Position numbers and translations under genes: made by a program. From positions 2,339 to 66,338 of the forward strand of contig DAOUFX010000230.1 in assembly GCA_034429675.1 (NCBI GenBank): DNA of 64,000 bases, in the 5' to 3' direction. The notes below the pieces were generated by a model. That model was not told the DNA's origin. It did not search any database and was given only the letters and a program-made list of their open reading frames with translations. This document shows positions 12,676 through 59,898 of this stretch, one piece after another (the first letter of the stretch is position 1; each line of letters begins with the position of its first letter). Origin of the DNA: Anaerolineae bacterium. Its GTDB lineage: Bacteria > Chloroflexota > Anaerolineae > B4-G1 > SLSP01.

Positions 12676-13114
12676 TTCTCTCGGCAATCTGGCGGTGAAT
12701 TTCCTGCGGAATCTCTATCCGCCGACTGTGACTGTAGGGATTGCCAAACTCCGGATCTTCGAAAACCAAACCGTTTATTTGCACCAAGTGGTTATATCGC
12801 GGTACAACCCACCAATGAACATGAGGATTGGGTGGATTTTCACGAAACGAGAGGTTCATGTAGCAAGACCAGTTAAACATAGTTGTGTCAAATGCCATCC
12901 GTAATGCGCTTTCCAAAACTTTCACGATGGTTAACCATTCGAGCAATTCATCCGGTTTTGTATCGGCAATATCGCCACAATGCCTTTTTAAATGAAGGAT
13001 ACATCTTCCGATAAGGCTTTGATTAGGCGCCAGAACGGTCCGCCAAAATTGTGTTTCCAGTATTAACGGATAGTTGGGATTATCAGGTGACCATGAACAA
13101 ATGGGGCATGTCAT
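12605..13114 (-). CDS. HIT-like (histidine triad family) protein with variant HxHxW motif
   Basis: The start is set at the internal ATG (plus 13114..13112; translation MTCPICSW...) because a perfect AGGAGG (plus 13127..13122) lies 7 nt upstream. The N-terminus has a C-P-I-C zinc-ribbon-like motif. The C-terminal segment PHVHWWVVPRY matches the HIT signature H-phi-H-phi-H-phi-phi with the third His replaced by Trp. The gene lies in an AT-rich island, and its 3' end overlaps the convergent YfhO-like gene by ~70 nt. Confidence 0.55.
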   Translation of the reverse strand: MTCPICSWSPDNPNYPLILETQFWRTVLAPNQSLIGRCILHLKRHCGDIADTKPDELLEWLTIVKVLESALRMAFDTTMFNWSCYMNLSFRENPPNPHVHWWVVPRYNHLVQINGLVFEDPEFGNPYSHSRRIEIPQEIHRQIAERIREVISYTAERNSTELEIPDRSH

Positions 13115-13345
13115 ATTTTTACCTCCTGAGCATCTTACGAAGCAAGAGAATCCACGCTGAGTGTAAGTCAAACTTACGAAAACAGCAACGACTTGGAAAT
13201 TGGTTTTGCTTCTATTTGTATTACTTTTTGAGAACGGCTATAATGAAATTGCTCACGGTCGAGACTGTGTAAAGCGATTGTATGTGAGAACCATGAAAAC
13301 TTTTCTGTCTACTTTCTAAATCTTAACCGAATGGTTATCCTATGG

Positions 13346-13412: not shown

Positions 13413-13814
13413 ATGTTCTTCGATGAACAAACATCTGGCAGAGGAGAAAAAATCCTATACATAGAAGACAATCCCGGAAATCGCATGCTGGTGCGTCGCA
13501 TTTTGATGGTAGAAGACTTCGTTGTCGTGGAGGCCGAAGACGGTCTACTCGGGGTTGAAGCTGCCTTGCGCGAGAAGCCGGACCTTATTTTGATGGACAT
13601 GAATCTCCCTGAAATGGATGGCTATGAATTAACCAAAAAACTCCGTAGTTTATCTGAGTTGGATGGAATCCCCATTATCGCGATGACGGCCAATGTGATG
13701 TTAGGGGACAAAGAGAAAACTCTGGAAGCCGGTTGCGACGGGTATATCCCCAAACCGATTGATGTGGATGAGTTGCCTCGCCAAATTCGCCGTTTTCTTG
13801 ATGCAAAGGGTTAA
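13413..13814 (+). CDS. single-domain CheY-like response regulator (receiver only)
   Basis: GGAGGAG lies 6 nt before the ATG. Receiver motifs are ILYIEDNPGN, the phospho-acceptor Asp in LILMDMNLPEMDG, the conserved T/S in IIAMTAN, and K in YIPKP. No output domain is present. Confidence 0.85.
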   Translation: MFFDEQTSGRGEKILYIEDNPGNRMLVRRILMVEDFVVVEAEDGLLGVEAALREKPDLILMDMNLPEMDGYELTKKLRSLSELDGIPIIAMTANVMLGDKEKTLEAGCDGYIPKPIDVDELPRQIRRFLDAKG

Positions 13815-13853
13815 TCAGCCACACAAGACTATCAAAATTTAGAGGCGTTAAGT

Positions 13854-14273
13854 ATGCCGTGGAAAACTACGTTGCCGCAAGAGGCCGTCATTTTAATTGT
13901 TGAGGACAATCTCAATAATTTTATTTTGATGACCCGCTTGTTGGCTTATCTTGGCGTCAAAAAATGTGAATGGAAAGCGTCTGGCTGGAAGGTTCTGGAA
14001 TTCGCCGAGACGTTAGGGATGATAGACCTGGTGTTGATGGATATGAACCTTCCCGACTCAGACGGCTATCAAGCATTGGCCTCCTTGCGTTCCCACAAAC
14101 GTTTTGAGAATGTCCCCATTGTTGCGGTGACAGCGCATGTTTCGTTGGAAAATGTGGATCGAGCGCGGCGCGCCGGATTTGATGGCTTCATCGGAAAACC
14201 ACTGGACCCAGATCGCTTTCCTGAACAAGTTCGCCGGGTTTTAGATGGTGAGGAGGTATGGGAACCGGATTAG
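13854..14273 (+). CDS. single-domain CheY-like response regulator (receiver only)
   Basis: Receiver motifs are ILIVEDNLNN, the phospho-acceptor Asp in LVLMDMNLPDSDG, VAVTAH and FIGKP. The product is 139 aa with no output domain. Confidence 0.85.
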   Translation: MPWKTTLPQEAVILIVEDNLNNFILMTRLLAYLGVKKCEWKASGWKVLEFAETLGMIDLVLMDMNLPDSDGYQALASLRSHKRFENVPIVAVTAHVSLENVDRARRAGFDGFIGKPLDPDRFPEQVRRVLDGEEVWEPD

Positions 14274-16612
14274 GTGAGAGACAAGAGGTTCTCGACGCTT
14301 CGCGTATGATTCCCACTACGGGGATGCGTGGCGGTTTGGGGAGAACGCTGTTGACTGCCTTTTTAATTCTCACTATTTTGCCGTTGACTCTGACGGTAGG
14401 GTACGCTACACAGCAGAACAGCCAAAATCTTCAACGGGAAGTTGAAAACAAGCTCCTGGCTTTGGCGACATTGAAGGGTGAAGCGCTTCGTCGTTGGTTG
14501 GATGATCTGCAAAAGTTGTTGGTGTTTTCCATAACGTTGGACGGAGGCCCTTCGCACGAGGGGTATGAATCGTGGTGGCTAACATTGCGTGAGCAATTGC
14601 CCGACTTAATGGGAGTGGTTGTCTTGGACCAAGATCAGCAACCCGTTTGGTCTGTTACTCAATGCCTGGAAATTTGGAATCAAATCTCCCCTCTTTCAGG
14701 CGACTCTTTATCCTCAACGAATTTGACTTTCTTTTATTCTGGCGTTATCTTTTTTTTACCATCTGCATACCATAATCAGACATTCGTGTTCTGTCTGGAT
14801 GGAAAAGGTTTGAATGAGGTCATTCAAGTTGGCGAGCCGGTCGAGCAAACCAATCATACTTATCTAGTCTATCGTTCATGCCTTTGGCCGGATACGACGC
14901 AGTGTGTGCTTCCTTCTATTGTGGATCAGCAAGCGGGGGGGGTAAACAGCGGTGTCTACGAGGATCATAATGGGATAACGGTTATTGGTGCTTACTACCC
15001 GTTGAATTGGTCCGAGTTGGGTGTGTTGGTGGAGCAGGATCAGGCAAAAACTCTGGAGTCATCGGACCGTATCGCGGCAACGTTTATCGCTCTGGTTCTG
15101 GCTGTGGCTCTAGCCTCAACCGCTATCTCAGCCGTGGTGATTCGTCAAATAACACAGCCGGTCATTCGACTCACCGAATCGGCGTTGGCCATGGCTGACG
15201 GTAAATTGGATCAGCATCTTGAAGTTACTTCACGGGATGAAATTGGGATCCTCACGTATGTGTTCAATGAGATGGCGGCGGATTTGAAATCCTTGTATGC
15301 GGACTTAGAGGCAAGGGTCGCCGTGAAAACTAAACAGATACGGCACTTCAACGAACAGATACAGCGAAGGTCTTTACATTTGCAGGCCAGTCAGAGTGTT
15401 AGTCAGGCGATCACTTCCATACGCGATCCCGATTTATTGTTAAGCCGTGTGACGGAGTTGATTAGAGACCGTTTTTTATATACCTCGGTAGCCATTTACA
15501 TGGTCGAACAGGGGGGCGGCGTAGCTTACATGCGCGCATTGAGCCCAGACACTCATGTAACTACGTCACAGGGCAGTGGAAATTTTTATGCGTGGCCTGA
15601 ATATGTCTACATTGGCGACGGCTCCATTGTAGATCGCGCTATTCGTAAGCGCGGTCCAGTCGTTGTGCCCAAAGAAACCGACGAAGAGATTGAGTGGTAT
15701 CGGCGCACTTTGTGTCAGGCAGTGGTTCCTTTGCGCATGGGAGACCGTGTAACGGGCGCGATTGCCGTTTTGAGTGCGGGGCGTGAAGGAATACAAGACG
15801 ATGAATTAGAGGTCTTGGGGTCGTTGGCGAATCAGGTTGCTATTGCTTTGGAGAACGCTCAGGCTTACGAACGTGAACGCTCGGCTACGCAACAGCTTGA
15901 AGAGGCCGAGGTGTTTAAGTCCCGGTTTATGGCGAATATATCCCACGAGTTACGCGAACCCTTGACCAATGTTATTGGGTTCTCGCGGGTGATTCTGAAA
16001 GAGATTGATGGCCCTTTGACCTCGCAGCAACGCGAAGATTTGGAGCGAATTTACAAGGATAGTCAGAAGCTTTTGAATTTGATCACCGACATTCTGGATA
16101 TCTCACAAATCGAAGCCGGTTTAACGGAACTGAAACTACAACCTGCGGATTTCCACGAAGTAGTCAACGATGTGATGCCTACAGCCAGCGCTCTGGTGCG
16201 CGGTAAGGATGTTAATCTGGTTCAGGAAATCCCCGCGGATCTCCCTTTTTTGCGGGTTGATTCGGCCAAAATCCGTCAGGTTTTGGTGCACCTTTTTACA
16301 AATGCTGCTAAGTTCACCGAACAGGGCGAGATCAAGATAGGCGCCCGGCGCAGCGAAGATTATGTGTATGTGAGCATAAGCGACACCGGCGTAGGAATCC
16401 AACCGGAAGATTTGAACAATATCTTTACCAGTTTCGGACGGCTTGGTCATAGAAGCATGCAGCAGGGGCCAGGATTGGGACTGGCATTGAGTAAGAAGCT
16501 TATTGAGATGCATGGGGGGGAGATTTGGGTGCAAAGTGAGGAGGGAGAAGGAACAACGTTTACCTTCTCCTTACCTTGTTATGCACCTTCAGACGCACCC
16601 GAATTAGAGTAG
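14258..16612 (+). CDS. sensor histidine kinase: TM–periplasmic Cache-like–TM–HAMP–GAF–HisKA–HATPase_c
   Basis: The start overlaps the preceding response-regulator gene by 16 nt. There are two TM helices (LLTAFLILTILPLTLTV and AATFIALVLAVALASTAISAVVI). A HAMP domain spans QITQPVIRLTESALAMADGKLDQ...DEIGILTYVFNEMAADL. A GAF domain follows. The HisKA phospho-acceptor His is in FMANISHELREPL. ATPase N, G1, F and G2 boxes are HLFTNAAKF, SDTGVGI, FTSFGR and GPGLGLALS. This is the only catalytic output domain in the whole locus. Confidence 0.9.
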   Translation: MGTGLGERQEVLDASRMIPTTGMRGGLGRTLLTAFLILTILPLTLTVGYATQQNSQNLQREVENKLLALATLKGEALRRWLDDLQKLLVFSITLDGGPSHEGYESWWLTLREQLPDLMGVVVLDQDQQPVWSVTQCLEIWNQISPLSGDSLSSTNLTFFYSGVIFFLPSAYHNQTFVFCLDGKGLNEVIQVGEPVEQTNHTYLVYRSCLWPDTTQCVLPSIVDQQAGGVNSGVYEDHNGITVIGAYYPLNWSELGVLVEQDQAKTLESSDRIAATFIALVLAVALASTAISAVVIRQITQPVIRLTESALAMADGKLDQHLEVTSRDEIGILTYVFNEMAADLKSLYADLEARVAVKTKQIRHFNEQIQRRSLHLQASQSVSQAITSIRDPDLLLSRVTELIRDRFLYTSVAIYMVEQGGGVAYMRALSPDTHVTTSQGSGNFYAWPEYVYIGDGSIVDRAIRKRGPVVVPKETDEEIEWYRRTLCQAVVPLRMGDRVTGAIAVLSAGREGIQDDELEVLGSLANQVAIALENAQAYERERSATQQLEEAEVFKSRFMANISHELREPLTNVIGFSRVILKEIDGPLTSQQREDLERIYKDSQKLLNLITDILDISQIEAGLTELKLQPADFHEVVNDVMPTASALVRGKDVNLVQEIPADLPFLRVDSAKIRQVLVHLFTNAAKFTEQGEIKIGARRSEDYVYVSISDTGVGIQPEDLNNIFTSFGRLGHRSMQQGPGLGLALSKKLIEMHGGEIWVQSEEGEGTTFTFSLPCYAPSDAPELE

Positions 16613-43400: not shown

Positions 43401-45024
43401 TCTGGAGGATACGGCGGCGCTCTATCGCGCCAGCCAGGCCATTAACACGGCGACTTCCCCTGATGAGATTGCGCACGCGTTGATTGTAGGCCTGCATCTG
43501 CCGGAAGTTTACCGGGTCACATTGAACCTGTTTGAGCATCCCTGGTTGCCGGAGAATTTGCCGGAACAGATTGAAACGGTTGCGATATGGGATAAGCGTG
43601 TGGAGGACGGCGAAATTCAACCTACAGGATCCGGTCAACGTTTTGAATTGCGTCAGTACCCGGCGGCGCATTTGTTTACGCCCGATGTTCCTCTGGTCTT
43701 TTCTGACATCACCACCGATTCCCGAATGGATGGGTTTTCTCGCGCATTGTTTCGCGATGTCTTTGGCGCGCGCGGCGCCGCTTTTCTGCCTATGGTCATC
43801 AGTGGACAATGCATTGGCTTTATCAGCGTTATGACGCACAGTGGAGCGGTCTTTGACGAACGCCGCTTGCGCCGGTTGACGGCGTTATCCAGCCAGGCTG
43901 CCGCTGCCATTCAGAGTATGCGTTTGCTCAAGTCGGCGCAGGATCGCGCGCGTCGTGAGCGTGCCTTGCGTGAGATAGCGCTGGCGGTCGGCGCCAGCGA
44001 GACTATCACTGGATTGCTTAATGAATTGCCGTTGATTGTGGCCCCCTTGCGTCAGTTGGTGCCGGTGGATTCTCTCGTGTTGACTACCCATACACCGGGT
44101 GAGACGGAACTGACGCTTTTTGCTATTCTGGCCGAGGCGACGACGGGACGTTACACCCAGGGGATGCGCTTACCTCTGGAAGGGACTGCCACCGCCTGGG
44201 TGATTGAGCACGACGAACCCTGGATAGATGTTGATATTCGCGAGAATCCTGCCTTTACGCAGGATCAACGCTTGTCGGATGAGCGGTTTGTGTCGCGGGC
44301 GACATTGCCGTTGCACTTTGGCGATCAAGTGGTGGGGACTCTCATCATTGGTTGCCAGCAGGTCGGGGCGTATACCCAAGAGGATGTGTCCGTTTTGCAG
44401 CGTGTCGCCGATCAATTGGCCCAGGCGTTGGAGCGCACACGCTTGTTGGAGACCACTCGCGCCGCTCGCGACGAAGTCACCGCAGTTCACCGTAGTTACT
44501 TGCGGCAGGGATGGCAGGAGTATCTGGAAAAGGAGCGGCAGTTGAGCCAGGCCACTTTCGTGTACGATGGAGGGAATGTCACCGTGCAGCGTGATTTTTC
44601 TCGCCCGGAAATTGAGCAATCGCTGAAGACCGGGGAAGCGGTGACCCAGGCCAGCGTATCGTCGCAGACTGAGGAATCACAACGCACGGCCCTGGCTGTC
44701 CCGATTGAGGTTCGCGGTCAGGTTTTGGGGGTGTTGGGGCTTGAGGACCCCGAGGGAAAGTGGCATTGTAATGCCGAGCAGCTGATGCTGATTCAGGCGG
44801 TGGCGCAGCAGTTGGGTCAAGTTCTTGAAAACTCCCGGTTGATTGAGGCGACGCAAAATCAGGCCGAACGCGAGCGTTTGGTGGATGAAGTGTCGTCGCG
44901 GGTGCGCGCTTCTCTGGAGTTGGATACAGTTTTGCGCACGGCAGTGGCTGAGTTACGCGATGCGTTGCAACTGGCCGAAATTGAGGTGCGCATCGGCGCC
45001 GAGACTTTGTCTCAAAGAAGGTAA
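40471..45024 (+). CDS. GAF-array member L: ~1518-aa cytoplasmic multi-PAS (5–6 PAS/PAC) + multi-GAF protein with the conserved tail; no output domain
   Basis: The start is set at ATG 40471, with GGAGAGGGAGAAGAG upstream and a 14-nt overlap with the previous gene; the track ORF begins at 40444. PAS blocks include SADWLWETDVVGRYVYSSARVTDILGYTADEVVGKT, NPNFVFVRDREGRFVLANQAIADAYG, GIGWATLDGTMVYVNPMMCRML, NDAILLENEKELIVDVNQRACELFGYTRDEL, TPDHIYFKDVENRFVRVNRSMAEW and TVVIYIKDLQGRYLLVNRRYETLF. GAF blocks include FGYYHAQIFRYD...LPKTQGELAVPIRLRDEILGILDVQS. The tail is RERLVDEVSSRVRASLELDTVLRTAVAELRDALQLAEIEVRI. Confidence 0.85.
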   Translation: MRHNKTSSRRTGDARRPLAGIVPGPSAPEANPLFSEAESRFADMAALSADWLWETDVVGRYVYSSARVTDILGYTADEVVGKTLFDLLPAEEASRLRDTLGEVMVARHPIENLVHQKIAKDGRSVWVQTQARPVFAADGGLLGYRGVDRDITAQRQTEEAQRQLREQEAFLRQVLDINPNFVFVRDREGRFVLANQAIADAYGTTVDGLIGKTDADFTLSGADVEAIRRSDLGVMESLKEKFIPESHIAYGGAHPRWVQTIKRPLVDEDGVARRVLGVSSDITERKLMQQAIEASLERRGRQVQTSTEIAQEIAGIAALDELFRKVVTLVKERFGYYHAQIFRYDAATQAMRLVVGYGDTGQAMLEAGHYLPMGRGVVGTAAETGRPVMASDVSQDSDWIPNKFLPKTQGELAVPIRLRDEILGILDVQSETAGALTGEDQLLLEGLCGQIAIAMESTQLLEFTGAFRQVIEASGQGIGWATLDGTMVYVNPMMCRMLNVPDSSALVGRLSQSFYPPEVQRRLAEEILPAVLQEGQWQGELPLLCSDGKVIPTLANIFIIRDKEGTPLYFANQIADITARKQVEVSLLHSEQRYRVLFEQANDAILLENEKELIVDVNQRACELFGYTRDELLTMKTSDLQPPSTSSLPIYSDPGMPTNIFELKASKRDGTPLYIEVHITPLEIGGESLFLSIVRDITGRRQTELALEQERYLLNSLMENTPDHIYFKDVENRFVRVNRSMAEWLQLSSPEEAVGKTDFDFFSEEHARQAFDDEKILMETGQSLIGLEEKETWQDGHVTWVSTTKLPMYDRQGVASGTFGISRDITESRQAQEQLRETQRLLQGILDNTTVVIYIKDLQGRYLLVNRRYETLFSVKQPDIVGKTFREVFANLEFAGLGVETETVLESGQSLEQIETIRREDAVHTYLSLKFPLCADDGAPYAIGCISTDITERESAETERKRLLSDLESHAKQLEVALEDTAALYRASQAINTATSPDEIAHALIVGLHLPEVYRVTLNLFEHPWLPENLPEQIETVAIWDKRVEDGEIQPTGSGQRFELRQYPAAHLFTPDVPLVFSDITTDSRMDGFSRALFRDVFGARGAAFLPMVISGQCIGFISVMTHSGAVFDERRLRRLTALSSQAAAAIQSMRLLKSAQDRARRERALREIALAVGASETITGLLNELPLIVAPLRQLVPVDSLVLTTHTPGETELTLFAILAEATTGRYTQGMRLPLEGTATAWVIEHDEPWIDVDIRENPAFTQDQRLSDERFVSRATLPLHFGDQVVGTLIIGCQQVGAYTQEDVSVLQRVADQLAQALERTRLLETTRAARDEVTAVHRSYLRQGWQEYLEKERQLSQATFVYDGGNVTVQRDFSRPEIEQSLKTGEAVTQASVSSQTEESQRTALAVPIEVRGQVLGVLGLEDPEGKWHCNAEQLMLIQAVAQQLGQVLENSRLIEATQNQAERERLVDEVSSRVRASLELDTVLRTAVAELRDALQLAEIEVRIGAETLSQRR

Positions 45025-47005: not shown

Positions 47006-47587
47006 ATGACACAGATTTTTGGTAACTATGTCGAACCGTCCGATGACATCGAACATTTGGTGATCCATTTTTCGCCAACGGCGATCCCTTTACAGCAACG
47101 CTGGCGCAACAATGGGTTGTCGGCGGACTTCCTGGCGGAATATTGGACGACTTTCTTCCCAACGTCCGATACACTTTTCGAAAGCCGTCGAAAAGCGATG
47201 AAGGGCGCGGTTGCTTACATTGCCAATGAGTTGTTGGAAAACATTATGAAATTCAACTACAACCCGGCGCAGTGCGCGGTCAACCTGGGGTTATATTTGC
47301 ATAAAGACGAATTACGTTTTTATACATCCAATGCCATTATCCCCGAGAACTACACCTCGTTTCGTGAGCGCATTCGACAATTGTTGACCGAAGACCCAGA
47401 AGAGTTGTACATTCGCCAGATCGAACAGAATGCTCTGAATGTGGATAAAGGTGGATCGTGCCTGGGACTATTGACAATGATTCACGATTATGAAGCCCAA
47501 CTGGCCTGGAAATTTGAGGATGTGCAATGCGGTACAGCCTCTTCGGAACTGGTGCTTGTCTATACTTTAGTGCGGTTGAATATTTGA
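47006..47587 (+). CDS. GHKL-fold (anti-sigma-factor/RsbW/SiaB/slr1658-like) putative partner-switching pseudo-kinase, copy 1
   Basis: A strong ribosome-binding site is present. An N-box-like IANELLENIMKF fits E-x-x-x-N-x-x-x-[H/F] with Phe at the usual His position. A G2-box-like segment is KGGSCLGLLTM. No G1 box (DxGxG) is recognisable. The product is 193 aa. It is immediately followed by a STAS-like gene, the classic partner-switching pair arrangement. Confidence 0.5.
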   Translation: MTQIFGNYVEPSDDIEHLVIHFSPTAIPLQQRWRNNGLSADFLAEYWTTFFPTSDTLFESRRKAMKGAVAYIANELLENIMKFNYNPAQCAVNLGLYLHKDELRFYTSNAIIPENYTSFRERIRQLLTEDPEELYIRQIEQNALNVDKGGSCLGLLTMIHDYEAQLAWKFEDVQCGTASSELVLVYTLVRLNI

Positions 47588-47601
47588 GGAGGATTGAGGC
47601 T

Positions 47602-47952
47602 ATGAAACAGGTACAGGGTGAGGATTACAGTATTTCCTATGATGATTCTACTGCCACGATTGTGTTTCGGGGACAGATGCGTTTACAAGGAACCGCAGAG
47701 TATGCCAGCATTGAGGAATTACTGGAAGAAGTTTTGACTACCAGTTCCAAGTTAATTTCATTGGATATGTGCGACCTGGAGTTCCTGAACAGCTCCGGTA
47801 TTAATGTGATCTTGAAATTTGCCTTCAAAGTACGGGACTTGCCGATGCGATTTTCTTTATTGTTGCGTGCTAATTCGCAGGTCATGTGGCAATCCCGTAT
47901 GTTGAGCAACTTGCAGCGTTTGATGCCCAATGTGAAGGTGCAATACAACTAG
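47602..47952 (+). CDS. STAS-fold / SiaC (DUF1987, slr1659)-like anti-sigma-antagonist-type protein, copy 1
   Basis: ATG 47602 has GAGGAGGA 7 nt upstream; the track ORF starts earlier at 47527 and overlaps the previous gene. The core LISLDMCDLEFLNSSGINVILKFAFKV matches the STAS/SiaC motif (L-D-[LM]-x-x-L-x-[FY]-[LI]-N-[ST]-S-[SG]-I). The candidate phospho-acceptor is the Ser/Ser pair in LNSSGIN. Confidence 0.55.
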   Translation: MKQVQGEDYSISYDDSTATIVFRGQMRLQGTAEYASIEELLEEVLTTSSKLISLDMCDLEFLNSSGINVILKFAFKVRDLPMRFSLLLRANSQVMWQSRMLSNLQRLMPNVKVQYN

Positions 47953-47988
47953 GCGGTAAAGGGTGCACCATAGTGAAAGAAGGCGATT

Positions 47989-48567
47989 ATGACTGAAATC
48001 TATGGAGATTTTAGGGAGCCTGAAGATGTGGGCGAGTACCTGATTATCCGTTTTTCGCCTAGTTCCATTCCATTGAAGCAACGTTGGCGCAATAATGGGT
48101 TGTCAGCAGACTTTTTGGCCGAGTATTGGGCGACTTTTTTTCCCGCTTATGATATTGCCTCACAGCAACGACAAGCGGAGATCAAGAATGCTATTGATTA
48201 TGTCGCCAATGAGTTGTTGGAGAATATCATGAAGTTTAGCTATTCTCCTTCCAATTACCCTGTAGACATCGGCCTGTATTTATTTGAGGATGAGTTCCGC
48301 TTTTATGCGCGCAATCCGATAGACCCGGTGAGTCTGCAGGGGTTTCGTGAGCTTATTCAGAAATTGCTGGTAGCGGATCCGCTGGAACTTTATCTTCAGC
48401 AAATTGAACATAATGCTGTTTCTGAAGATGGGAATGTCTCGCAGTTGGGTCTGTTGACCATGATGACCGACTACAATGCGACATTGGCCTGGAAATTTGA
48501 ATCGCTTGAGCCGTCTCCCGGAATGGAGATTTTGATTGTGACAACGATGGTGAGTCTATCTTTGTAG
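47989..48567 (+). CDS. GHKL-fold SiaB/slr1658-like putative partner-switching pseudo-kinase, copy 2 (paralogue of 47006..47587)
   Basis: It is collinear with copy 1: PSSIPLKQRWRNNGLSADFLAEYWATFFP versus PTAIPLQQRWRNNGLSADFLAEYWTTFFP. The N-box-like segment is VANELLENIMKFSY and the G2-like segment is SQLGLLTMM. Confidence 0.5.
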   Translation: MTEIYGDFREPEDVGEYLIIRFSPSSIPLKQRWRNNGLSADFLAEYWATFFPAYDIASQQRQAEIKNAIDYVANELLENIMKFSYSPSNYPVDIGLYLFEDEFRFYARNPIDPVSLQGFRELIQKLLVADPLELYLQQIEHNAVSEDGNVSQLGLLTMMTDYNATLAWKFESLEPSPGMEILIVTTMVSLSL

Positions 48568-48608
48568 ATGTCAGATGTTTATTGAAAGCTGAGTGAGGAG
48601 TGCCCATA

Positions 48609-48953
48609 ATGAAAATCGAAGATGAAAATTATGAAGTGACTTATGATCAAGAAACAATGACCATAGTTTTTCATGGAACTTTGCGTCTACGCGGGGTAGC
48701 CGAATACGAGCCCATTACGCATTTGCTGGACGATGTGATCGCCCAGACGCCGGAGAAAGTGACCCTTGATTTGCGCGATCTGCATTTTCTCAACAGTTCT
48801 GGTATCAATATCCTGTTCCGATTTGTGATCAATATGCGTGAAAAGGCAACCACCGTTGTGGTAGTGCGGGGAGCTTCCGAGATTCCATGGCAGACGAAAT
48901 CGTTGAAGAATTTGCAACGGCTGATGCCCGCTTTGCAGTTGGAGTTTGATTGA
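48609..48953 (+). CDS. STAS-fold / SiaC (DUF1987)-like protein, copy 2 (paralogue of 47602..47952)
   Basis: ATG 48609 has GAGGAG 8 nt upstream; the track uses GTG 48600. The core is VTLDLRDLHFLNSSGINILFRFVINM. It is collinear with copy 1 (YEVTYDQETMTIVFHGTLRLRGVAEYEPI versus YSISYDDSTATIVFRGQMRLQGTAEYASI). Confidence 0.55.
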   Translation: MKIEDENYEVTYDQETMTIVFHGTLRLRGVAEYEPITHLLDDVIAQTPEKVTLDLRDLHFLNSSGINILFRFVINMREKATTVVVVRGASEIPWQTKSLKNLQRLMPALQLEFD

Positions 48954-48965
48954 GTTTGGAGGAAC

Positions 48966-49607
48966 ATGGAGCAAGAAGAACCTACCCTTGAGGCTTTGTT
49001 GTCCGAGATTGCTGCTCTGCGTCAGGAAGTCGCCACTTTGCAACAGGAGAGGGACGACATTCAAACCATTATGGATATAACCGTCGAACATTCCGATGGT
49101 GTGACGGCAGAAATGGAGGAGCGCCTGCGGATGATGGAAATGCTGCAGCGAGCGCAGACGCGCGAGGGTTGGGATATTTTGCGGGCGCGACGTGCGGGAT
49201 TGTGGGGGTATGCTTTTGATCGTCAGAAGGTGCGGCGATTGACATCGCTGCCTGCCCCTGATTCGGAAACCCACATGCTTCCGATGGTGATACAGCAAGA
49301 TAAGGTGGGGATGATCGGGGTTCGGGATGACGCGCAACATCCGTTGACTGCGGAAGAGCGAGCTCTGTTGACTTCTCTCTCTGAGCAAATTGCCGCTGCT
49401 CTCGATCGCGCGCGTTTGTTCGAGGTTACTCGTCGCAACGCGGCGCGCGATCAGATTATCAGTGAAATCAGCGCTCAAATGCGGGCATCTTTGGACATTG
49501 ATACAATCTTGCAAACAACGGTCCGTGAAATCGCGGAAGCTCTCAATATTGCACGGGTGGAAGTGCGCCTGGGCAGCGATGAGGATGGAATCGAAGTCGG
49601 ATCTTGA
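48966..49607 (+). CDS. minimal GAF-array member R (213 aa): coiled coil + GAF-B + conserved tail only, with no sensor domain and no GAF-A
   Basis: GGAGGAA lies 6 nt before the ATG. The coiled coil is LEALLSEIAALRQEVATLQQERDDIQ. GAF-B runs MLPMVIQQDKVGMIGVRDDAQHPLTAEERALLTSLSEQIAAALDRARLFE. The tail is RDQIISEISAQMRASLDIDTILQTTVREIAEALNIARVEVRL. Confidence 0.75.
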   Translation: MEQEEPTLEALLSEIAALRQEVATLQQERDDIQTIMDITVEHSDGVTAEMEERLRMMEMLQRAQTREGWDILRARRAGLWGYAFDRQKVRRLTSLPAPDSETHMLPMVIQQDKVGMIGVRDDAQHPLTAEERALLTSLSEQIAAALDRARLFEVTRRNAARDQIISEISAQMRASLDIDTILQTTVREIAEALNIARVEVRLGSDEDGIEVGS

Positions 49608-56528: not shown

Positions 56529-56777
56529 ATGAAAAGATTTAAAGCATTTTTGCGACAGCCAGAACTGATGGCCTTGCTTTTTATCCTGGGGGGCCTTGCC
56601 TTTTTTTACCCGGTTCTATTGATGTTGGAAGCTGCGCCGCCACGAACCACGATGCTTGCTGTCTATCTCCCTTGGGGTTTGATCACACTGGCGTTGATTT
56701 TTATTGGACGCGCCAGCTTCGCGGACTCCTCTTCTCCGGAAGCTACGTCGCAGGATGAAGGGGGGCGTGATGGCTAA
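56529..56777 (+). CDS. small 2-TM membrane protein, DUF4212-like (sodium:solute symporter-associated small subunit)
   Basis: ATG 56529 has GGAGAA 8 nt upstream; the track begins at 56487 and overlaps the previous gene. The 82-aa product has two TM helices (LMALLFILGGLAFFYPVLLML and LAVYLPWGLITLALIFIG). Its stop overlaps the downstream SSS-family start by 8 nt, the typical pairing of the DUF4212 small subunit with an SSS permease. Confidence 0.55.
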   Translation: MKRFKAFLRQPELMALLFILGGLAFFYPVLLMLEAAPPRTTMLAVYLPWGLITLALIFIGRASFADSSSPEATSQDEGGRDG

Positions 56778-59700
56778 TCCCTGGGGTGTCATCCTGGCCA
56801 TATCTGCTTACATTGCCCTGATGTTTGTGGCCGCACTCCTGGTCGAGCGCGGTGTTTGGAAGCGCCAGCTCACAGCTTACGGCGGCATGGTCTATGCTTT
56901 GGCTCTGACCGTTTATTGTACATCGTGGACTTTTTACGGCAGCGTGGGCAGCGCGGCCACCACAGGAATGCGTTTTGTCGCCGTCTATCTCGGCCCGGTC
57001 TTATCCGTCATTTTGTGGGGCAGCGTTCTGCGCCGTATGGTGCGCATTAAGAATTTGTACCGGATTACAACCATTGCCGATTTTATCTCGGCGCGTTATG
57101 CCAAATCCGAGGCTCTGGCCGTTGTGGCGACTCTTTTGGCCGTGGTGGGCGTCTTGCCGTATATTGCGCTACAGCTCAAAGCGGTCACCGACTCTTTTGC
57201 AGTGATTACAGCTGCCGATGTCGCTTTTAGCGCCTGGGCGACCGGTTATATTGCTCCGGTGGTGTTGGTTTTCATGATCGCTTTCACTGTTTTGTTTGGG
57301 GCGCGGCGTTTGGATCCCACCGAGCGGCATCCCGGCATGGTTTTTGCGTTGGCCGTTCTGGGCGTTGTGAGACTGGTTGCGTTTTTGGCCGTGGGAATTT
57401 TTGTCACCTATGGGTTGTTGGGGGGCTTCGGACAATTCTTCCAGACCTTAGAGACCAGTTCTTTTGCCGGATTGACCGACATGGCCGGCGGCGCGTCGGG
57501 GCCGTTGGTTTGGATGACTCACATCCTTTTGTCTATGTCTGCGATTTTGTTTTTGCCCCGGCAGTTCCACATGGCCGTTATAGAAAATGAGAATGAGAAG
57601 CATATCGGTACCGCCATGTGGGTTTTGCCGCTGTACATGATTTTGATCACGATTTTTGTTCTTCCAATTGCAGCCGGAGGACTGTTGTTGGGACAATCGG
57701 TAACGGTGGCCGATACTTTCGTCTTACGCCTGCCCATGCAGTATGGCCCCGGTTGGTTGACCATGTTGGTGTTTTTGGGCGGCCTTTCTGCGTCTTCGGC
57801 GATGGTCATGCTTACATCTTTGGCGGTCTCGACGATGATCGCCAATCACTTACTGTTGCCGTTGCTGATGAGGATACCCTCTTTGGGGTTTTTGCGACGC
57901 AATTTGTTGCCGGTGCGTTGGGGCGTGATCGCCATTGTGTTGGTGTTGGGGTATGTGTTCAACGCGCGTTTGGGCGAGTCCTACACGTTGGTGAACATGG
58001 GATTGATTTCCTTCGCAGCCGTCATGCAATTTGCCCCGGTTATTTTGGGAGGATTGTTCTGGCGACGTGGCAGTAAGGTCGGCGCCTTGATGGGATTGAT
58101 TGCCGGGTTCGCGATGTGGATGTACACATTGTTGATTCCTTCGTTTGTTAGAAGCGGTTGGCTTTCTTCATCCCTTCTCGACAACGGGCCTTTGGGCATC
58201 GGCTGGCTGCGTCCGGAGCAATTTTTGGGATTGCGCGGATTGGACAACTTGACGCACGCGGTGTTTTGGTCTCTGTTGTTGAATGTCGGTTTATACGTCT
58301 TGGGCTCGCTGTTTTTCCCTCAAAGTCAAGACGAGAAGGTTCAGGCTGATCGTTTTGTGGATATCCTGGCCCACAAAGGCGTGACGTTTGCCGCGGTGTA
58401 TGGGCACGCCCAGGTAAGTGTCGTGCTGAAAACAGACCAGCTGGAGCAAATTCTGAATAACTATTTCTTTGTTTCGGAATCCAGGGCTATGATTGCCCGC
58501 TGTTTGGAAAGAGTTGGGCTCAAAGATCAGCGTGAAACTACCGTGAATAAACTCGTCGAGTTTTATGATGAAGTGGAACGCGAACTGGCCGGTTCGCTTG
58601 GCACGGCAGCTGCGCATCGCACGATTGACCGGAAATCCCTTTTCACAGCAGAGGAGTCGGCGGAGTTGTCACGCACTTATGGCGAAATCCTGGCCGATTT
58701 GCAAATCGCGCCTGACGATCTGATGAAGCGGATTGATTATTACCGCGAGCGCGAAAATTTGTTGGCAGAACAGGCGTCCGGGTTGGAATCGCGGGTGGCG
58801 GCTCGCACTCGCGCGCTGGCGATGGCTGCAGAAGTGGGGCGTGCTGCGGCTTCAATCTTGGACCCTGAACGCCTGGTTAAGCAGGTGGTGGAGTTAATCC
58901 GCGAACGTTTTGATTTGTATTATGTCGGTCTGTTTTTGCTGGATGAGCTCCGCGAATGGGCGGTTTTGCGTGCCGGCACCGGAGCCGCCGGACAGATGAT
59001 GCTGGCGCGTGGGCATCGTTTGAAGTGTGACGAGGGTTCAATGGTGGGCTGGTGCATTGTGAATGCCCGGGCGCGCATCGCTCTGGAAGCCGAAAAAGAC
59101 GAAGTGCGCCATGTCACTGCCGAGTTGCCGGATACGCATTCCGAAGTAGCTGTGCCTTTGCGCTCGCGCGGACAGGTGCTCGGTGCGTTTACCATTCAAA
59201 GTACGCAGCTAAACGCCTTTGACGAAGCCGCCATCACGGTTTTTCAGATGGTGGCTGATCAAGTAGCGGTGGCTCTGGACAATGCGCGTTTGTTCGCCGA
59301 TGCCCAGGCCGCTATTGAAACCGAGCGGCGCGCCTACGGTGAGATCAATCGCCAGGCGTGGAAAGAGATGTTGCGCAGCCGGCCTGAGTTGCGTTACCGT
59401 CGCGATGCGCGCGGTGCTGTGCATTCAACATCTGGATCGCCGGCGCAAGAGATCGTGCGGGCGGTTCAGACTGGGGATGCAGTCTATTCCGAGGCCGCCA
59501 CTCTGGCGTTGCCCATCAGGATTCGTGACAATGTGGTGGGCGCGCTGCGTTTTCGCAAGCCGGAAACCAATGAGGCGTGGACGCCGGAGGAAGTGACCCT
59601 GTTGGAGACTCTCATTGAGCAACTGGAAGGAGCGTTGGAACGCGCCCGTCTTTATGACAATACACAACGTAGCGCCGCTCGCGAACGCACCATCGGTCAG

Positions 59701-59898
59701 GTTTCTGCAAGGATGCGCGAGCCGTTGGAATTGGAAGATGTCTTGAAAACGGCTGCGGATCAGATGCGTGAAGCTCTCGGCCTGGAAGAACTGGTGGTGC
59801 GCCTGGCTACCGGTCAGACGCTGGCGCAGTGGGCCGGAGACACTGCTTCGGGAGAGCCGGAGACCGACGATTCACCGATGGGAGATCAAAGCTTATGA
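56770..59898 (+). CDS. GAF-array member W: sodium:solute symporter (SSS family, ~13 TM) fused to S-helix + GAF-A + GAF-B + tail; no enzymatic output domain
   Basis: ATG 56770 has GAAGGGGGG upstream; the track begins at 56704. The SSS N-terminus is VILAISAYIALMFVAALLVERG...YGGMVYALALTVYCTSWTFYGSVGSAATTGMRF with ~13 TM helices to aa ~560. The S-helix is LESRVAARTRALAMAAEV. GAF-A runs FDLYYVGLFLLDELREWAVLRAGTGAAGQMMLARGHRLKCDEGSMVGWCI...ELPDTHSEVAVPLRSRGQVLGAFTIQS. The tail is RERTIGQVSARMREPLELEDVLKTAADQMREALGLEELVVRL. Confidence 0.85.
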   Translation: MANPWGVILAISAYIALMFVAALLVERGVWKRQLTAYGGMVYALALTVYCTSWTFYGSVGSAATTGMRFVAVYLGPVLSVILWGSVLRRMVRIKNLYRITTIADFISARYAKSEALAVVATLLAVVGVLPYIALQLKAVTDSFAVITAADVAFSAWATGYIAPVVLVFMIAFTVLFGARRLDPTERHPGMVFALAVLGVVRLVAFLAVGIFVTYGLLGGFGQFFQTLETSSFAGLTDMAGGASGPLVWMTHILLSMSAILFLPRQFHMAVIENENEKHIGTAMWVLPLYMILITIFVLPIAAGGLLLGQSVTVADTFVLRLPMQYGPGWLTMLVFLGGLSASSAMVMLTSLAVSTMIANHLLLPLLMRIPSLGFLRRNLLPVRWGVIAIVLVLGYVFNARLGESYTLVNMGLISFAAVMQFAPVILGGLFWRRGSKVGALMGLIAGFAMWMYTLLIPSFVRSGWLSSSLLDNGPLGIGWLRPEQFLGLRGLDNLTHAVFWSLLLNVGLYVLGSLFFPQSQDEKVQADRFVDILAHKGVTFAAVYGHAQVSVVLKTDQLEQILNNYFFVSESRAMIARCLERVGLKDQRETTVNKLVEFYDEVERELAGSLGTAAAHRTIDRKSLFTAEESAELSRTYGEILADLQIAPDDLMKRIDYYRERENLLAEQASGLESRVAARTRALAMAAEVGRAAASILDPERLVKQVVELIRERFDLYYVGLFLLDELREWAVLRAGTGAAGQMMLARGHRLKCDEGSMVGWCIVNARARIALEAEKDEVRHVTAELPDTHSEVAVPLRSRGQVLGAFTIQSTQLNAFDEAAITVFQMVADQVAVALDNARLFADAQAAIETERRAYGEINRQAWKEMLRSRPELRYRRDARGAVHSTSGSPAQEIVRAVQTGDAVYSEAATLALPIRIRDNVVGALRFRKPETNEAWTPEEVTLLETLIEQLEGALERARLYDNTQRSAARERTIGQVSARMREPLELEDVLKTAADQMREALGLEELVVRLATGQTLAQWAGDTASGEPETDDSPMGDQSL

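What the first reader, a model, noticed from the sequence alone, without database searches (positions are those of the whole stretch)
56529..59898. Sodium:solute symporter (with DUF4212-like small subunit) fused to the S-helix–GAF–GAF–tail module: a transporter used as a sensor input
A full ~13-TM SSS-family permease is preceded by, and translationally coupled to, a 2-TM DUF4212-like small subunit. It continues without interruption into the same S-helix (LESRVAARTRALAMAAEV), GAF-A, GAF-B and tail found in all other array members. Fusions of SSS to histidine kinases or GGDEF domains are known, such as the CbrA type. Here the transporter is fused to an output-less GAF module. This implies the array senses substrate flux or binding at a permease and relays it through the common, unknown output.
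Basis: partly seen in the sequence, partly recalled or inferred. Interest (0 to 1): 0.7.

Follow-up and report, generated by a model that had tools for sequence, protein, structure and literature searches.

The report
Kinase-less CbrA-type transporter-sensor with GAF tail
This is a real, conserved gene pair from an uncultured Anaerolineae bacterium in which a CbrA-like transporter-type sensor, with its small membrane partner peptide, carries a tandem-GAF module with no known output where its relatives carry a histidine kinase, so a known kind of nutrient sensor has been rewired into an unexplained signalling array.

Summary
A single uninterrupted ORF (ATG 56770 to TGA 59898, 1042 aa) follows an 82-aa two-TM ORF (56529-56777) that overlaps it by 8 nt.

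The N-terminal part is not a generic permease. It is the complete input module of the CbrA-type SLC5/STAC "transceptor" sensors. This is supported by phmmer E 1.7e-66 to the CbrXA cryo-EM chain 10ED, by SLC5-only Foldseek top hits, and by a linker+STAC profile match (hhalign 87 %, E 4e-6).

The small ORF is CbrX-like in position, size, topology and overlap. It gives no DUF4212 HMM hit.

At the exact point where the closest Anaerolineae relatives continue into HisKA-HATPase_c, this protein has GAF-B plus a ~55-aa tail. The tail is the start (helix + strand) of a further GAF repeat.

The fusion recurs in at least 12 protein clusters (45-87 % identity) and on 10 contigs, so it is not an artefact.

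Candidate downstream partners exist in the array: REC-REC-HK at its head, and two slr1658/slr1659 partner-switch pairs plus a 213-aa stand-alone GAF-B+tail protein in its middle.

One oddity: the conserved proton/Na2-site lysine is Arg here, alone among 75 relatives.

Verdict: a new variant of a known kind. The output mechanism is inferred, not shown.

The parts
56529..56777 (+). CbrX-like small membrane ORF: 82 aa, two hydrophobic helices, basic N-terminus, acidic C-terminus.
   Evidence: ORF. Two TM segments by hydropathy. Conserved upstream of homologues in L001, L003, L004, L005, L006 and L089 at 24-45 % identity, with invariant M1, E12, P28, L30, W49, L56 and R61. No Pfam or PDB sequence hit.
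56770..56777 (+). 8-nt overlap ATGGCTAA: start codon of the sensor gene and stop codon of the small ORF (translational-coupling arrangement).
   Evidence: Sequence. The same ATGnnTAR or GTGnnTGA overlap is found in L001, L004, L005, L006 and L089. cbrX-cbrA overlap and coupling were shown experimentally in P. putida (PMC6591292).
56770..59898 (+). Main ORF, 1042 aa: SLC5 - STAC - S-helix - GAF-A - GAF-B - tail. TGA stop at 59896-59898.
   Evidence: Identical protein P0001 in the database. The next gene starts at 59895 (ATGA overlap).
56770..58317 (+). SLC5/SSS LeuT-fold domain, 13 TM helices (aa 1-516).
   Evidence: phmmer to 10ed_A (CbrA SLC5-STAC) E 1.7e-66. AF2 model pLDDT 81.9, pTM 0.81. 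Foldseek top hits are SGLT2, SGLT1, NIS, SMCT1, CHT1, DUR3, SiaT and vSGLT, TMt 0.6-0.72. Pfam SSF aligns end to end but is sub-threshold.
57370..57372 (+). Codon AGA = Arg201, at the position of CbrA Lys196 (Na2/proton-coupling site).
   Evidence: Mapped through the phmmer alignment. The position is K in 74 of 75 family members and R only here. The same AGA is present in contigs from two JGI samples, and the 81 %-identical L089 orthologue has K.
58318..58698 (+). Post-TM13 amphipathic helix, flexible linker and STAC-like four-helix region (aa 517-643).
   Evidence: AF2 shows H520-530, low confidence at 537-543, and helices 551-562, 568-582, 592-610 and 612-643. hhalign of this region's family profile against the linker+STAC region of CbrA-like proteins (residues 495-597) gives prob 86.8 %, E 4.3e-6, 102 columns. 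The layout matches the 10ED description.
58711..58854 (+). S-helix / coiled-coil connector (aa 648-695), including LESRVAARTRALAMAAEV. It has an A-R-T core where the paralogues have E-R-T.
   Evidence: One continuous helix in both models (H648-697; H2-35). The motif is aligned across paralogues in A4 and across SLC5 kinases in A1.
58858..59280 (+). GAF-A (aa 697-837).
   Evidence: Pfam GAF_2 E 1e-20 and GAF E 1.4e-18. AF2 pLDDT >90. Foldseek matches to GAF domains at TMt up to 0.88.
59302..59649 (+). GAF-B, a short GAF (aa 845-960), preceded by a 52-residue connecting helix.
   Evidence: Pfam GAF 32 bits, above the 22.4 cut-off, on its C-terminal third. AF2 shows five strands plus flanking helices.
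59650..59811 (+). Conserved tail (aa 961-1014): continuation of the GAF-B C-terminal helix, a break, a 16-residue helix (LELEDVLKTAADQMREAL) and a strand-like VVRLA. This is the first helix and strand of a further GAF repeat, after which the domain stops.
   Evidence: A4 consensus. AF2 H279-323 and H328-343. It occupies the position of the DHp/H-box in the kinase relatives (A1). Paralogue 25851-28541 continues from the same motif into a whole extra GAF. Profile hits include giant proteins with 6-21 repeats.
59812..59895 (+). Acidic, low-complexity, predicted-disordered C-terminal extension (aa 1015-1042).
   Evidence: pLDDT <60. Variable among paralogues.
47006..48953 (+). Candidate partners (inferred). 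Two tandem pairs: slr1658-family proteins (SiaB/RsbW-like kinase fold) at 47006-47587 and 47989-48567, and slr1659-family proteins (STAS/SiaC-like) at 47599-47952 and 48609-48953.
   Evidence: NCBIfam scores are above the curated cut-offs. The same cassette is embedded in the related arrays L010, L089 and L090.
48966..49607 (+). Candidate adaptor (inferred): 213-aa protein made of a coiled coil, GAF-B and the tail, with no sensor domain.
   Evidence: Orthologues are found in L089, L010 and L090, and the tail is their most conserved part. Its N-terminal coil (aa 4-57) matches the N-terminus of the PAS-cyclase or PAS-STAS genes that follow slr1658/slr1659 in other phyla.
13413..16612 (+). Candidate partners (inferred). 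Two single-domain receiver proteins (13413-13814, 13854-14273) and the only histidine kinase of the array (14258-16612; HAMP-GAF-HisKA-HATPase_c).
   Evidence: The kinase shares the S-helix/GAF-A part with the target (blastp E 2e-10).

Best explanation
The two genes encode a CbrXA-type 'transceptor' input with its kinase replaced.

The parts, in order:
- An ~80-aa two-helix membrane peptide is made in fixed ratio with the sensor through overlapping stop and start codons. By analogy with CbrX, it is bound to the sensor.
- A 13-TM SLC5 domain has a conserved central ligand pocket.
- A STAC four-helix bundle is docked under the SLC5 domain.
- An S-helix coiled coil follows.
- Where the nearest relatives carry HisKA-HATPase_c, this protein carries the array's shared kinase-less module: GAF-A, GAF-B and a truncated-GAF tail.

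Proposed mechanism:
1. Ligand binding, or the transport cycle, in the SLC5 domain shifts the STAC/S-helix register. This is inferred from CbrA.
2. The shift is passed along the long helices of a parallel tandem-GAF dimer. This is inferred from the tandem-GAF fold.
3. It changes how the conserved tail is presented.
4. The tail has no catalytic or phospho-acceptor feature, so output must be a protein-protein contact shared by all ~20 tail-bearing paralogues.

My preferred partner (about 0.3) is the 213-aa stand-alone GAF-B+tail protein together with the slr1658 (kinase-like) / slr1659 (STAS) partner-switch pairs embedded in the array. The alternative (about 0.2) is the REC-REC-HK set at the head of the array.

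Shown here: gene structure, homology of every domain, conservation of the fusion, and the junction where kinase and tail are swapped.

Inferred: ligand sensing, dimerisation, direction of signal flow, and the identity of the partner.
For: Input module:
- 10ed_A E 1.7e-66. 10ED is the P. putida CbrXA SLC5-STAC structure, with the CbrX hairpin bound to TM3/TM8.
- SLC5-only Foldseek top hits.
- STAC profile match, 87 %, E 4e-6.
- Pocket residues Y49, T51, W53, T54, F69, Y73 and F415 are invariant or nearly so across 75 relatives and correspond to the CbrA histidine-pocket residues.

Small ORF:
- It is conserved, with the same overlap, upstream of tail-type relatives, GAF-kinase relatives and the Syntrophobacter fumaroxidans PAS-kinase relative.

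Output swap:
- In A1 the tail begins exactly where P0011, P0014 and P0016 enter the H-box.
- Tail forms and GAF-kinase forms interleave in one clade of the SLC5 tree.

Shared module:
- 19 other ORFs carry it behind dCache, HAMP, MASE11, PBP or PAS inputs.

The fusion is real:
- It occurs in 12 clusters at 45-87 % identity and on 10 contigs from at least 2 samples. There is also a syntenic NCBI MAG.

Candidate partners:
- slr1658/slr1659 plus the short tail protein are embedded in four related arrays: the window, L089, L010 and L090. L010 has a GAF-PP2C (Pfam SpoIIE) just upstream; the ORF at the same position in L090 was matched only by blastp and was not scanned.
- The tail is the most conserved part of the short protein.
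Against: - No experiment bears on any step.
- The tail has no known interaction function. In the monomer model its strand-like end is unpaired.
- slr1658/slr1659 are not generally linked to tail proteins. Only 1 of 80 genome loci found with slr1658 has them, and elsewhere the cassette's third gene is a PAS-cyclase or PAS-STAS.
- The 20-kb views of L001, L003, L004 and L005 show no slr1658/slr1659. L004 and L005 instead end in PALP-REC or REC genes.
- Arg201 at the coupling-Lys site may mean the SLC5 domain no longer cycles like CbrA.
- For CbrA itself, published data suggest the key signal may be intracellular and that the TM domain only modulates the kinase.
Confidence: 0.55

Rival explanations
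1. Two-component route. The kinase-less sensors, including this one, form mixed dimers or higher oligomers with the single array kinase (14258-16612) through the shared S-helix/GAF-A. They tune its phosphorylation of the two adjacent receiver proteins, and the tail is only a structural cap.
For: - REC, REC and HK open the array.
- The kinase shares S-helix/GAF-A with the target.
- In L005 the SLC5-GAF-GAF protein itself is the kinase. It closes an array of tail proteins and is followed by PALP-REC and REC. L004 also ends with PALP-REC.
- Kinase and tail are exchanged at one junction.
Against: - The kinase is only ~29 % identical in GAF-A and lacks GAF-B and the tail.
- A mere cap would not need the strong conservation seen in the tail.
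- This rival does not explain the embedded slr1658/slr1659 plus short-tail cassette.
Confidence: 0.2
2. Reverse flow. The protein is primarily a working solute transporter, and the cytoplasmic GAF-GAF-tail is a regulatory appendage through which a cytosolic ligand or partner gates uptake.
For: - The transport pocket is fully conserved.
- CbrA does transport histidine.
- There is no output domain.
- Regulatory cytoplasmic domains on LeuT-fold carriers exist (KimA with c-di-AMP is among the Foldseek hits).
Against: - The same module sits behind about 19 non-transporter sensor domains (dCache, MASE11, PBP, PAS), so it is the common element, not a transporter-specific regulator.
- All nearest SLC5 relatives are kinases.
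- The coupling Lys is lost in this protein.
Confidence: 0.1
3. Decayed kinase. The protein is a remnant of an SLC5-GAF histidine kinase that lost its catalytic half and is now non-functional, or merely a ligand sink.
For: - Close relatives are complete kinases.
- The tail looks like a truncated domain.
- Arg201 is a unique substitution.
Against: - The ORF is intact, and the architecture is kept across 45-87 % identity in 12 clusters.
- The tail is conserved in 20 window ORFs. The GAF-B+tail profile finds about 95,000 representative proteins, several of which end in the module.
- Tight translational coupling is kept on both sides.
Confidence: 0.07
4. Assembly or frameshift artefact that joins a permease gene to a GAF gene.
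For: None found.
Against: - An identical protein is in the database, and the small ORF next to it lies on 10 contigs. The first 1008 nt of the sensor gene are 1008/1008 and 1006/1008 identical in two JGI samples.
- An 81 %-identical syntenic copy is present in an NCBI MAG.
- Eleven further full-length homologues have the same domain order.
Confidence: 0.01

Closest known systems
CbrX/CbrA of Pseudomonas putida (SLC5-STAC-PAS-DHp-CA 'transceptor'; PDB 10ED; PMC13488458, PMC6591292, PMC7096432)
   Same: - A small two-helix peptide gene overlaps the sensor gene.
- The SLC5 domain has 13 TM helices (E 1.7e-66).
- The substrate pocket is largely conserved.
- An amphipathic helix, a flexible linker and a STAC bundle follow TM13.
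- A helical connector leads to the cytoplasmic signalling domains.
   Different: - There is no PAS, DHp or catalytic domain. GAF-A, GAF-B and the tail stand in their place.
- The overlap is 8 nt rather than 17 nt.
- The small peptide shows no detectable sequence similarity to CbrX.
- Arg replaces the coupling Lys196.
- The phylum is Chloroflexota.
- The gene sits in a ~50-kb array of paralogues rather than next to a cognate response regulator.
SLC5/STAC histidine kinases in general (CrbS/MxtR, RpuS, and thousands of 'Na+/proline symporter/signal transduction histidine kinase' proteins, e.g. Syntrophobacter fumaroxidans P0036)
   Same: About 50 % identity over the first ~690 residues, the same small upstream ORF with an overlapping stop and start, and the same S-helix.
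   Different: Those proteins end in HisKA-HATPase_c (with or without PAS or REC). This one has no phospho-acceptor His and no ATPase.
Anaerolineae SLC5-STAC-GAF-GAF-HisKA-HATPase_c proteins (P0011, P0014, P0016, P0017)
   Same: Collinear through GAF-B (42-46 % identity over the whole length), the same small ORF (L005), and the same kind of array neighbourhood.
   Different: After the GAF-B C-terminal helix they enter the H-box (SMSHELRTPLN), whereas the target enters the tail.
SSS-domain proteins with GAF, PP2C_SIG and HATPase_c domains noted in Actinobacteria (review PMC7918813)
   Same: This is a precedent for SSS domains wired to non-canonical signalling domains, including GAF.
   Different: Those proteins still carry recognisable output enzymes (PP2C phosphatase, HATPase_c). 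The present one has none.
Tandem-GAF regulatory modules (PDE5A/PDE2A GAF-A/B, cyanobacterial CyaB2, phytochrome GAF-PHY)
   Same: The predicted fold has two GAF domains joined by long helices. Foldseek gives E 1e-8 to 1e-9.
   Different: In those proteins the final helix leads into a catalytic domain. Here it leads into about a quarter of a further GAF and then the protein stops.
Partner-switching hubs: SiaABCD of P. aeruginosa and the RsbR/S/T stressosome of Bacillus (a functional analogy drawn from general knowledge, not from homology of the target)
   Same: - Many paralogues with different sensor heads share one C-terminal module.
- A SiaB/RsbW-like kinase (slr1658) and a STAS protein (slr1659) are encoded among them.
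- In L010 a GAF-PP2C is present too.
   Different: - The shared module is GAF-GAF-tail, not STAS.
- No complex has been shown.
- slr1658/slr1659 usually accompany PAS-cyclases, not tail arrays.

Membership tests
Solute:sodium symporter family (SSS / SLC5; Pfam PF00474, TC 2.A.21) | Sequence match to the family profile above the curated threshold. | tested here: inconclusive
   Pfam SSF gives E 1.4e-3 and 18.0 bits against a cut-off of 22.8, but it aligns aa 38-446 to profile positions 9-406 of 406. Several close relatives do carry a precomputed PF00474 hit.
Solute:sodium symporter family (SSS / SLC5) | LeuT-type fold with 13 TM helices, homologous to solved SLC5 members. | tested here: met
   13 hydropathy segments. 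phmmer E 1.7e-66 to the SLC5 domain of 10ED. The AF2 model (pTM 0.81) has its first 38 Foldseek PDB hits all in SLC5, with TMt up to 0.72.
Solute:sodium symporter family (SSS / SLC5) | Ion-coupling site (Na2 site, or the Lys that replaces Na+ in proton-coupled CbrA). | tested here: not met
   The residue equivalent to CbrA K196 is R201 (codon AGA). It is K in 74 of 75 relatives. Whether Arg supports transport is unknown.
Solute:sodium symporter family (SSS / SLC5) | Demonstrated solute transport. | not testable with these tools
   This needs uptake assays.
SLC5/STAC sensor ('transceptor') family (CbrA, CrbS/MxtR, RpuS) | STAC four-helix domain directly after the SLC5 domain. | tested here: met
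   Profile-profile hhalign against the linker+STAC region of CbrA-like proteins gives prob 86.8 %, E 4.3e-6 over 102 columns. AF2 predicts an amphipathic helix, a disordered linker and four helices at aa 520-643, as described for 10ED. Single-sequence and HMM searches of PDB found nothing.
SLC5/STAC sensor ('transceptor') family | C-terminal histidine-kinase core (HisKA/DHp with a phospho-acceptor His, plus HATPase_c). | tested here: not met
   No HisKA or HATPase_c hit. In A1 the tail replaces the H-box and has no conserved His.
CbrX-like accessory peptide | Small ORF immediately upstream, overlapping the sensor gene's start (translational coupling). | tested here: met
   There is an 8-nt overlap. 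It is conserved in 5 of 6 related loci across two phyla. Coupling itself was not measured.
CbrX-like accessory peptide | Two-helix membrane hairpin with both ends on the same (cytoplasmic) side. | tested here: inconclusive
   Two hydrophobic segments with a short loop. The basic N-terminus and the Arg after TM2 are compatible with an in/in topology, but no topology program or structure was available.
CbrX-like accessory peptide | Sequence similarity to CbrX, or physical binding to TM3/TM8 of the SLC5 domain. | tested here: not met
   There is no PDB hit with the sequence or with the 5-member profile. Binding is not testable here.
DUF4212 (small subunit of some SSS permeases) | Match to the Pfam/NCBIfam model. 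| tested here: not met
   No hit at E<=10 for any of 5 members. No NCBIfam hit. All 41 related clusters have no precomputed Pfam domain.
S-helix (signalling helix; Anantharaman, Balaji and Aravind 2006, recalled from memory) | A ~40-residue heptad helix between modules, with a central (D/E)-R-T motif. | tested here: inconclusive
   A continuous 48-50-residue helix in both models. The target has A-R-T, while most paralogues and SLC5 kinases have E-R-T. No dedicated model was available.
GAF domain (PF01590 / PF13185) | Profile match above threshold, and the GAF fold. | tested here: met
   GAF-A scores 74.8 and 68.2 bits. GAF-B scores 32 bits, above the 22.4 cut-off. Foldseek to solved GAFs gives TMt up to 0.88.
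slr1658/slr1659 regulator cassette (context genes only, not the target) | NCBIfam superfamily models above cut-off. | tested here: met
   slr1658_superfam scores 205.8 and 221.3 bits (cut-off 100). slr1659_superfam scores 124.8 and 157.4 bits (cut-off 100).

The most novel reading that the evidence does not exclude
The ~50-kb array is a multi-sensor hub of a kind not yet described.
- About twenty kinase-less receptors (dCache, MASE11, PBP, PAS and this SLC5 transceptor) converge through their truncated-GAF tails on a 213-aa GAF-B+tail adaptor.
- That adaptor takes the place that a PAS-adenylate cyclase occupies elsewhere as the client of the slr1658 (kinase-like) / slr1659 (STAS) partner switch.
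- Nutrient flux through, or binding to, a transporter would then be integrated with many other inputs into one partner-switching output. This would be a GAF-based analogue of the stressosome.
Probability: 0.2. Interest if true: 0.8.

Novelty: new variant of a known kind. Interest (0 to 1): 0.55.

Why it matters
SLC5/STAC transceptors (CbrA, CrbS) control carbon use and virulence in proteobacteria, yet how the transporter half talks to the signalling half is unresolved.

This lineage offers a natural domain-swap series. The same small peptide + SLC5 + STAC + S-helix + GAF-GAF chain ends either in a histidine kinase or in a ~55-residue truncated-GAF tail. The position of the swap is defined to the residue.

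That makes two questions testable. What does the tail bind? Does the SLC5/STAC input drive unrelated outputs by the same helical mechanism?

It also gives the large kinase-less GAF array its one member whose input domain has a solved, ligand-bound homologue. This is a practical entry point for finding a ligand and reading out the array's unknown output.

Tried and rejected
- **DUF4212.** Pfam and NCBIfam scans of the small ORF and its homologues found nothing. The label was rejected.
- **Sequence link from the small ORF to CbrX.** None was found in PDB, with either the single sequence or the profile.
- **STAC by direct PDB search.** The single sequence and a 10-sequence HMM both gave no hit. 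The link appeared only with profile-profile hhalign, after CbrA-like sequences had been fetched.
- **NCBIfam on the N-terminal 700 aa.** No family matched.
- **Foldseek against 10ED itself.** The structure library ends in April 2026 and lacks that entry. The afdb50 library was not available.
- **Fold search for the tail.** Only generic tandem-GAF matches were returned.
- **A general genomic link between slr1658/slr1659 and tail proteins.** Only 1 of 80 genome loci shows it, so the link is lineage-specific. A metagenome scan with the 213-aa protein returned a single locus.
- **Promoter and terminator scan of 46.7-60.1 kb.** Counts were at chance level.
- **Literature.** Searches for slr1658/slr1659 and for GAF arrays in Anaerolineae found nothing on this architecture.
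- **Alternative TTG start at 56704.** Rejected because all homologues begin at the ATG 56770 position.

Full report
**Observation**

The + strand carries one open frame from 56704 to the TGA at 59896-59898. All homologues begin at the residue encoded by ATG 56770, so the product is 1042 aa (A1). Database protein P0001 is identical to it.

Upstream lies a small ORF. Homologues support the start at 56529, giving 82 aa. Its TAA stop falls inside the string ATGGCTAA, so the two genes overlap by 8 nt. The next gene downstream starts at 59895 in an ATGA overlap. There is no stop or frameshift between the membrane part and the GAF part.

Hydropathy gives 13 TM segments in aa 1-516 and two in the small ORF.

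**What the N-terminal part is**

Pfam's SSF model matches only below threshold (18.0 against 22.8 bits), although it aligns end to end. NCBIfam has no hit. Other evidence is decisive:

- A phmmer search of PDB gives a single hit, 10ed_A, at E 1.7e-66 over aa 7-459. 10ED is the 2026 cryo-EM structure of the P. putida CbrX/CbrA SLC5-STAC fragment (PMC13488458).
- An AF2 model of aa 1-700, built on 75 relatives (pLDDT 81.9, pTM 0.81), has its first 38 Foldseek PDB hits all in SLC5: SGLT1/2-MAP17, NIS, SMCT1, CHT1, DUR3, SiaT and vSGLT.
- After TM13 the model shows a short amphipathic helix, a low-confidence linker and four helices. This is the layout described for CbrA's linker and STAC bundle.
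- Direct PDB searches with this region failed. A profile-profile comparison between the family's aa 517-628 and residues 495-597 of CbrA-like proteins gives 86.8 % probability and E 4.3e-6 over 102 columns.

The module is therefore the SLC5-STAC input of the 'transceptor' sensor class, not a generic PutP/ActP-type permease.

The database search agrees. The first ~65 % of the protein is about 50 % identical to thousands of proteins that sources call 'Na+/proline symporter/signal transduction histidine kinase'.

**Pocket and coupling site**

I mapped the residues that line the histidine pocket in CbrA through the phmmer alignment:

| CbrA residue | Target residue |
|---|---|
| Y51 | Y49 |
| S53 | T51 |
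| W55 | W53 |
| A56 | T54 |
| F71 | F69 |
| Y75 | Y73 |
| F406 | F415 |
| F248 | S255 |

All but the last are invariant or nearly so in 75 relatives, whatever their output domain. So the family keeps one pocket, close to but not identical with CbrA's.

The Lys that occupies the Na2 site in CbrA (K196) is Lys in 74 of 75 relatives but Arg (AGA) in the window protein. The same codon is present in contigs from two different JGI samples, while the 81 %-identical orthologue in an NCBI MAG has Lys. The substitution is therefore real and recent. Its effect is unknown.

**The small ORF**

A 78-88-aa ORF precedes the homologues in every locus I fetched:

- tail-type relatives: L001, L003, L004, L089;
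- a GAF-kinase relative: L005;
- the PAS-kinase relative of the cultured Syntrophobacter fumaroxidans: L006.

In five of these six loci the stop overlaps the sensor's start codon in the same ATGnnTAR (or GTGnnTGA) pattern. The proteins align at 24-45 % identity with invariant E12, P28, L30, W49, L56 and R61.

None of them, and none of the 41 related database clusters, has any Pfam domain. 'DUF4212-like' is thus not supported.

The arrangement is that of cbrX-cbrA. There, overlap and translational coupling were shown experimentally (PMC6591292), and the peptide is a two-helix hairpin bound to the SLC5 domain. No sequence similarity to CbrX is detectable, so equivalence is positional and topological only.

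**The C-terminal module and the tail**

An AF2 model of aa 661-1042, built on 20 window paralogues, has pLDDT 87.5. It shows, in order:

- a long helix (the S-helix);
- GAF-A;
- a 52-residue connecting helix;
- a short GAF-B;
- a 45-residue helix;
- a break, then a 16-residue helix;
- a strand-like VVRLA;
- a disordered acidic end.

Foldseek finds tandem-GAF modules such as PDE5A, CyaB2 and phytochrome.

The tail has the sequence pattern of the first helix and strand of a GAF domain. Three observations support this:

- One paralogue (25851-28541) continues from the same motif into a whole extra GAF and then ends in a second tail.
- A profile of GAF-B+tail finds about 95,000 representative proteins.
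- The best of these are giants of 1100-3950 aa with 6-21 copies, and several end in GAF-B+tail.

In alignment A1 the tail starts exactly where the closest Anaerolineae relatives (P0011, P0014, P0016; 1226-1231 aa) enter the H-box of HisKA. It has no conserved His.

**Is the fusion real and conserved?**

Twelve clusters, including the window's own, have the same order and length (1024-1057 aa, 45-87 % identity) with a C-terminal tail hit at E 1e-12 to 1e-25. The small ORF that adjoins and overlaps the sensor gene occurs on 10 contigs. A syntenic copy exists in GCA_016931835.1. An assembly artefact is excluded.

On a neighbour-joining tree of the SLC5-STAC part, tail forms and GAF-kinase forms interleave within one clade. 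The output was therefore exchanged within this lineage.

**Context**

Twenty ORFs of the window carry the tail. Their inputs are dCache, HAMP, MASE11, a LacI-type periplasmic-binding domain, PAS arrays, or none.

The array opens with two receiver-only proteins and its single histidine kinase (13413-16612).

In its middle lie three elements:

- Two slr1658-family (SiaB/RsbW-like) and slr1659-family (STAS) pairs.
- A 213-aa protein made of a coiled coil plus GAF-B+tail.

This cassette is embedded in the related arrays L089, L010 and L090. L010 also has a GAF-PP2C directly upstream. The tail is the best-conserved part of the 213-aa protein.

Elsewhere slr1658/slr1659 are followed by a PAS-adenylate/guanylate cyclase or a PAS-STAS protein. 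This holds for cyanobacteria and other Chloroflexota. The N-terminal coil of these proteins matches that of the 213-aa protein. Only 1 of 80 such genome loci has tail proteins nearby.

**Mechanism**

Shown:

- the gene structure;
- homology of each domain;
- the conserved pocket;
- the conserved peptide gene;
- the residue-level junction where kinase and tail are swapped.

Inferred:

- The SLC5 domain reports ligand binding or its transport cycle through STAC and the S-helix, as proposed for CbrA.
- The signal runs along a parallel tandem-GAF dimer.
- Because the tail has no catalytic or phospho-acceptor feature, the output is a protein contact common to all tail-bearing paralogues.

I rank the 213-aa adaptor with slr1658/slr1659 first (about 0.3) and the REC-REC-HK set second (about 0.2). 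A transporter regulated by its GAF module, a decayed kinase and an artefact are less likely, for the reasons given under the rival explanations.

**Comparison and novelty**

The input belongs to the known SLC5/STAC sensor class. The family's defining kinase core is absent, so this is not a member of the SLC5/STAC histidine kinases, although its input should work like theirs.

SSS domains joined to GAF and PP2C domains have been noted in Actinobacteria (PMC7918813), but those proteins retain output enzymes. I found no description of an SLC5-STAC-GAF-GAF protein ending in a truncated-GAF tail, or of the array that holds it. I rate it a new variant of a known kind.

**Limits**

- There is no experimental data.
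- No multimer modelling was possible.
- The topology of the small ORF rests on hydropathy only.
- STAC homology rests on one profile-profile score plus the predicted secondary structure.
- The tree is a simple distance tree.
- The partner assignment is based on gene neighbourhood in four related arrays.

Noticed in passing
window 47006-48953: Two tandem slr1658-family (SiaB/RsbW-like) and slr1659-family (STAS/SiaC-like) pairs sit in the middle of the GAF array. This stretch has a lower G+C (0.50 against 0.54-0.58 around it). The proteins are 51-62 % identical to cyanobacterial, Caldilineaceae, Chloroflexia and Deinococcota homologues.
   Followed up: partly
window 48966-49607: A 213-aa protein has no sensor domain: coiled coil + GAF-B + tail. 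Its first ~55 residues match the N-terminus of the PAS-adenylate/guanylate cyclase or PAS-STAS genes that follow slr1658/slr1659 in other phyla (L046, L018, L007). It therefore seems to occupy the 'effector' slot of that cassette.
   Followed up: partly
window 13413-16612: The array begins with two receiver-only response regulators (133 and 139 aa). They are followed by its only true histidine kinase (HAMP-GAF-HisKA-HATPase_c), whose start overlaps the second receiver gene.
   Followed up: partly
window 57370-57372 (Arg201 of the sensor): This protein alone has Arg at the coupling-Lys position (CbrA K196). The other 74 of 75 relatives, including an 81 %-identical orthologue, have Lys. The AGA codon is confirmed in two independent samples.
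   Followed up: yes
window 25851-28541 and 23083-25854: Two paralogues carry an extra domain between GAF-B and the final tail. In 25851-28541 the first tail motif runs on into a complete additional GAF, which shows that the tail is a GAF start.
   Followed up: partly
proteins P0121-P0270: The GAF-B+tail profile finds giant proteins of up to 3952 aa with up to 21 tandem copies of this GAF repeat. It finds about 95,000 representatives at E<=1e-3. Several of the listed proteins end in the same GAF-B+tail.
   Followed up: no
window 28547-31336 and 40444-45024: Two unusual inputs are present in the same array. One is a LacI-type periplasmic-binding-protein domain (Peripla_BP_1/3) fused to GAF-GAF-tail. 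The other is a 1526-aa protein with six or more PAS domains and four GAF hits that ends in the tail.
   Followed up: no
L010 8061-9956; L090 7148-8968: In L010 a GAF-SpoIIE (PP2C phosphatase) gene lies directly upstream of slr1658/slr1659, which would complete a classical partner-switch set. A 607-aa ORF sits at the same position in L090, but it was matched only by blastp to a window GAF paralogue and was not scanned for PP2C. No PP2C gene was seen in the window.
   Followed up: partly
L004 15992-18190; L005 13728-16386: Related arrays end with a PALP (pyridoxal-phosphate enzyme) domain fused to a receiver domain. In L005 this is followed by a single-domain receiver. This is an unusual response-regulator output next to the SLC5 sensors.
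   Followed up: no
L001 6026-7015 and 17514-18689; L003 20965-22137; L089 4405-5496: Stand-alone periplasmic binding proteins (NMT1, Peripla_BP_4) are interspersed in related arrays. This suggests that some neighbouring sensors are binding-protein dependent.
   Followed up: no
window 12605-13171 (- strand): A 188-aa ORF on the opposite strand lies between the housekeeping block and the array. It contains a HIT-like HVHWWVVPR motif. It was recognised by eye only.
   Followed up: no
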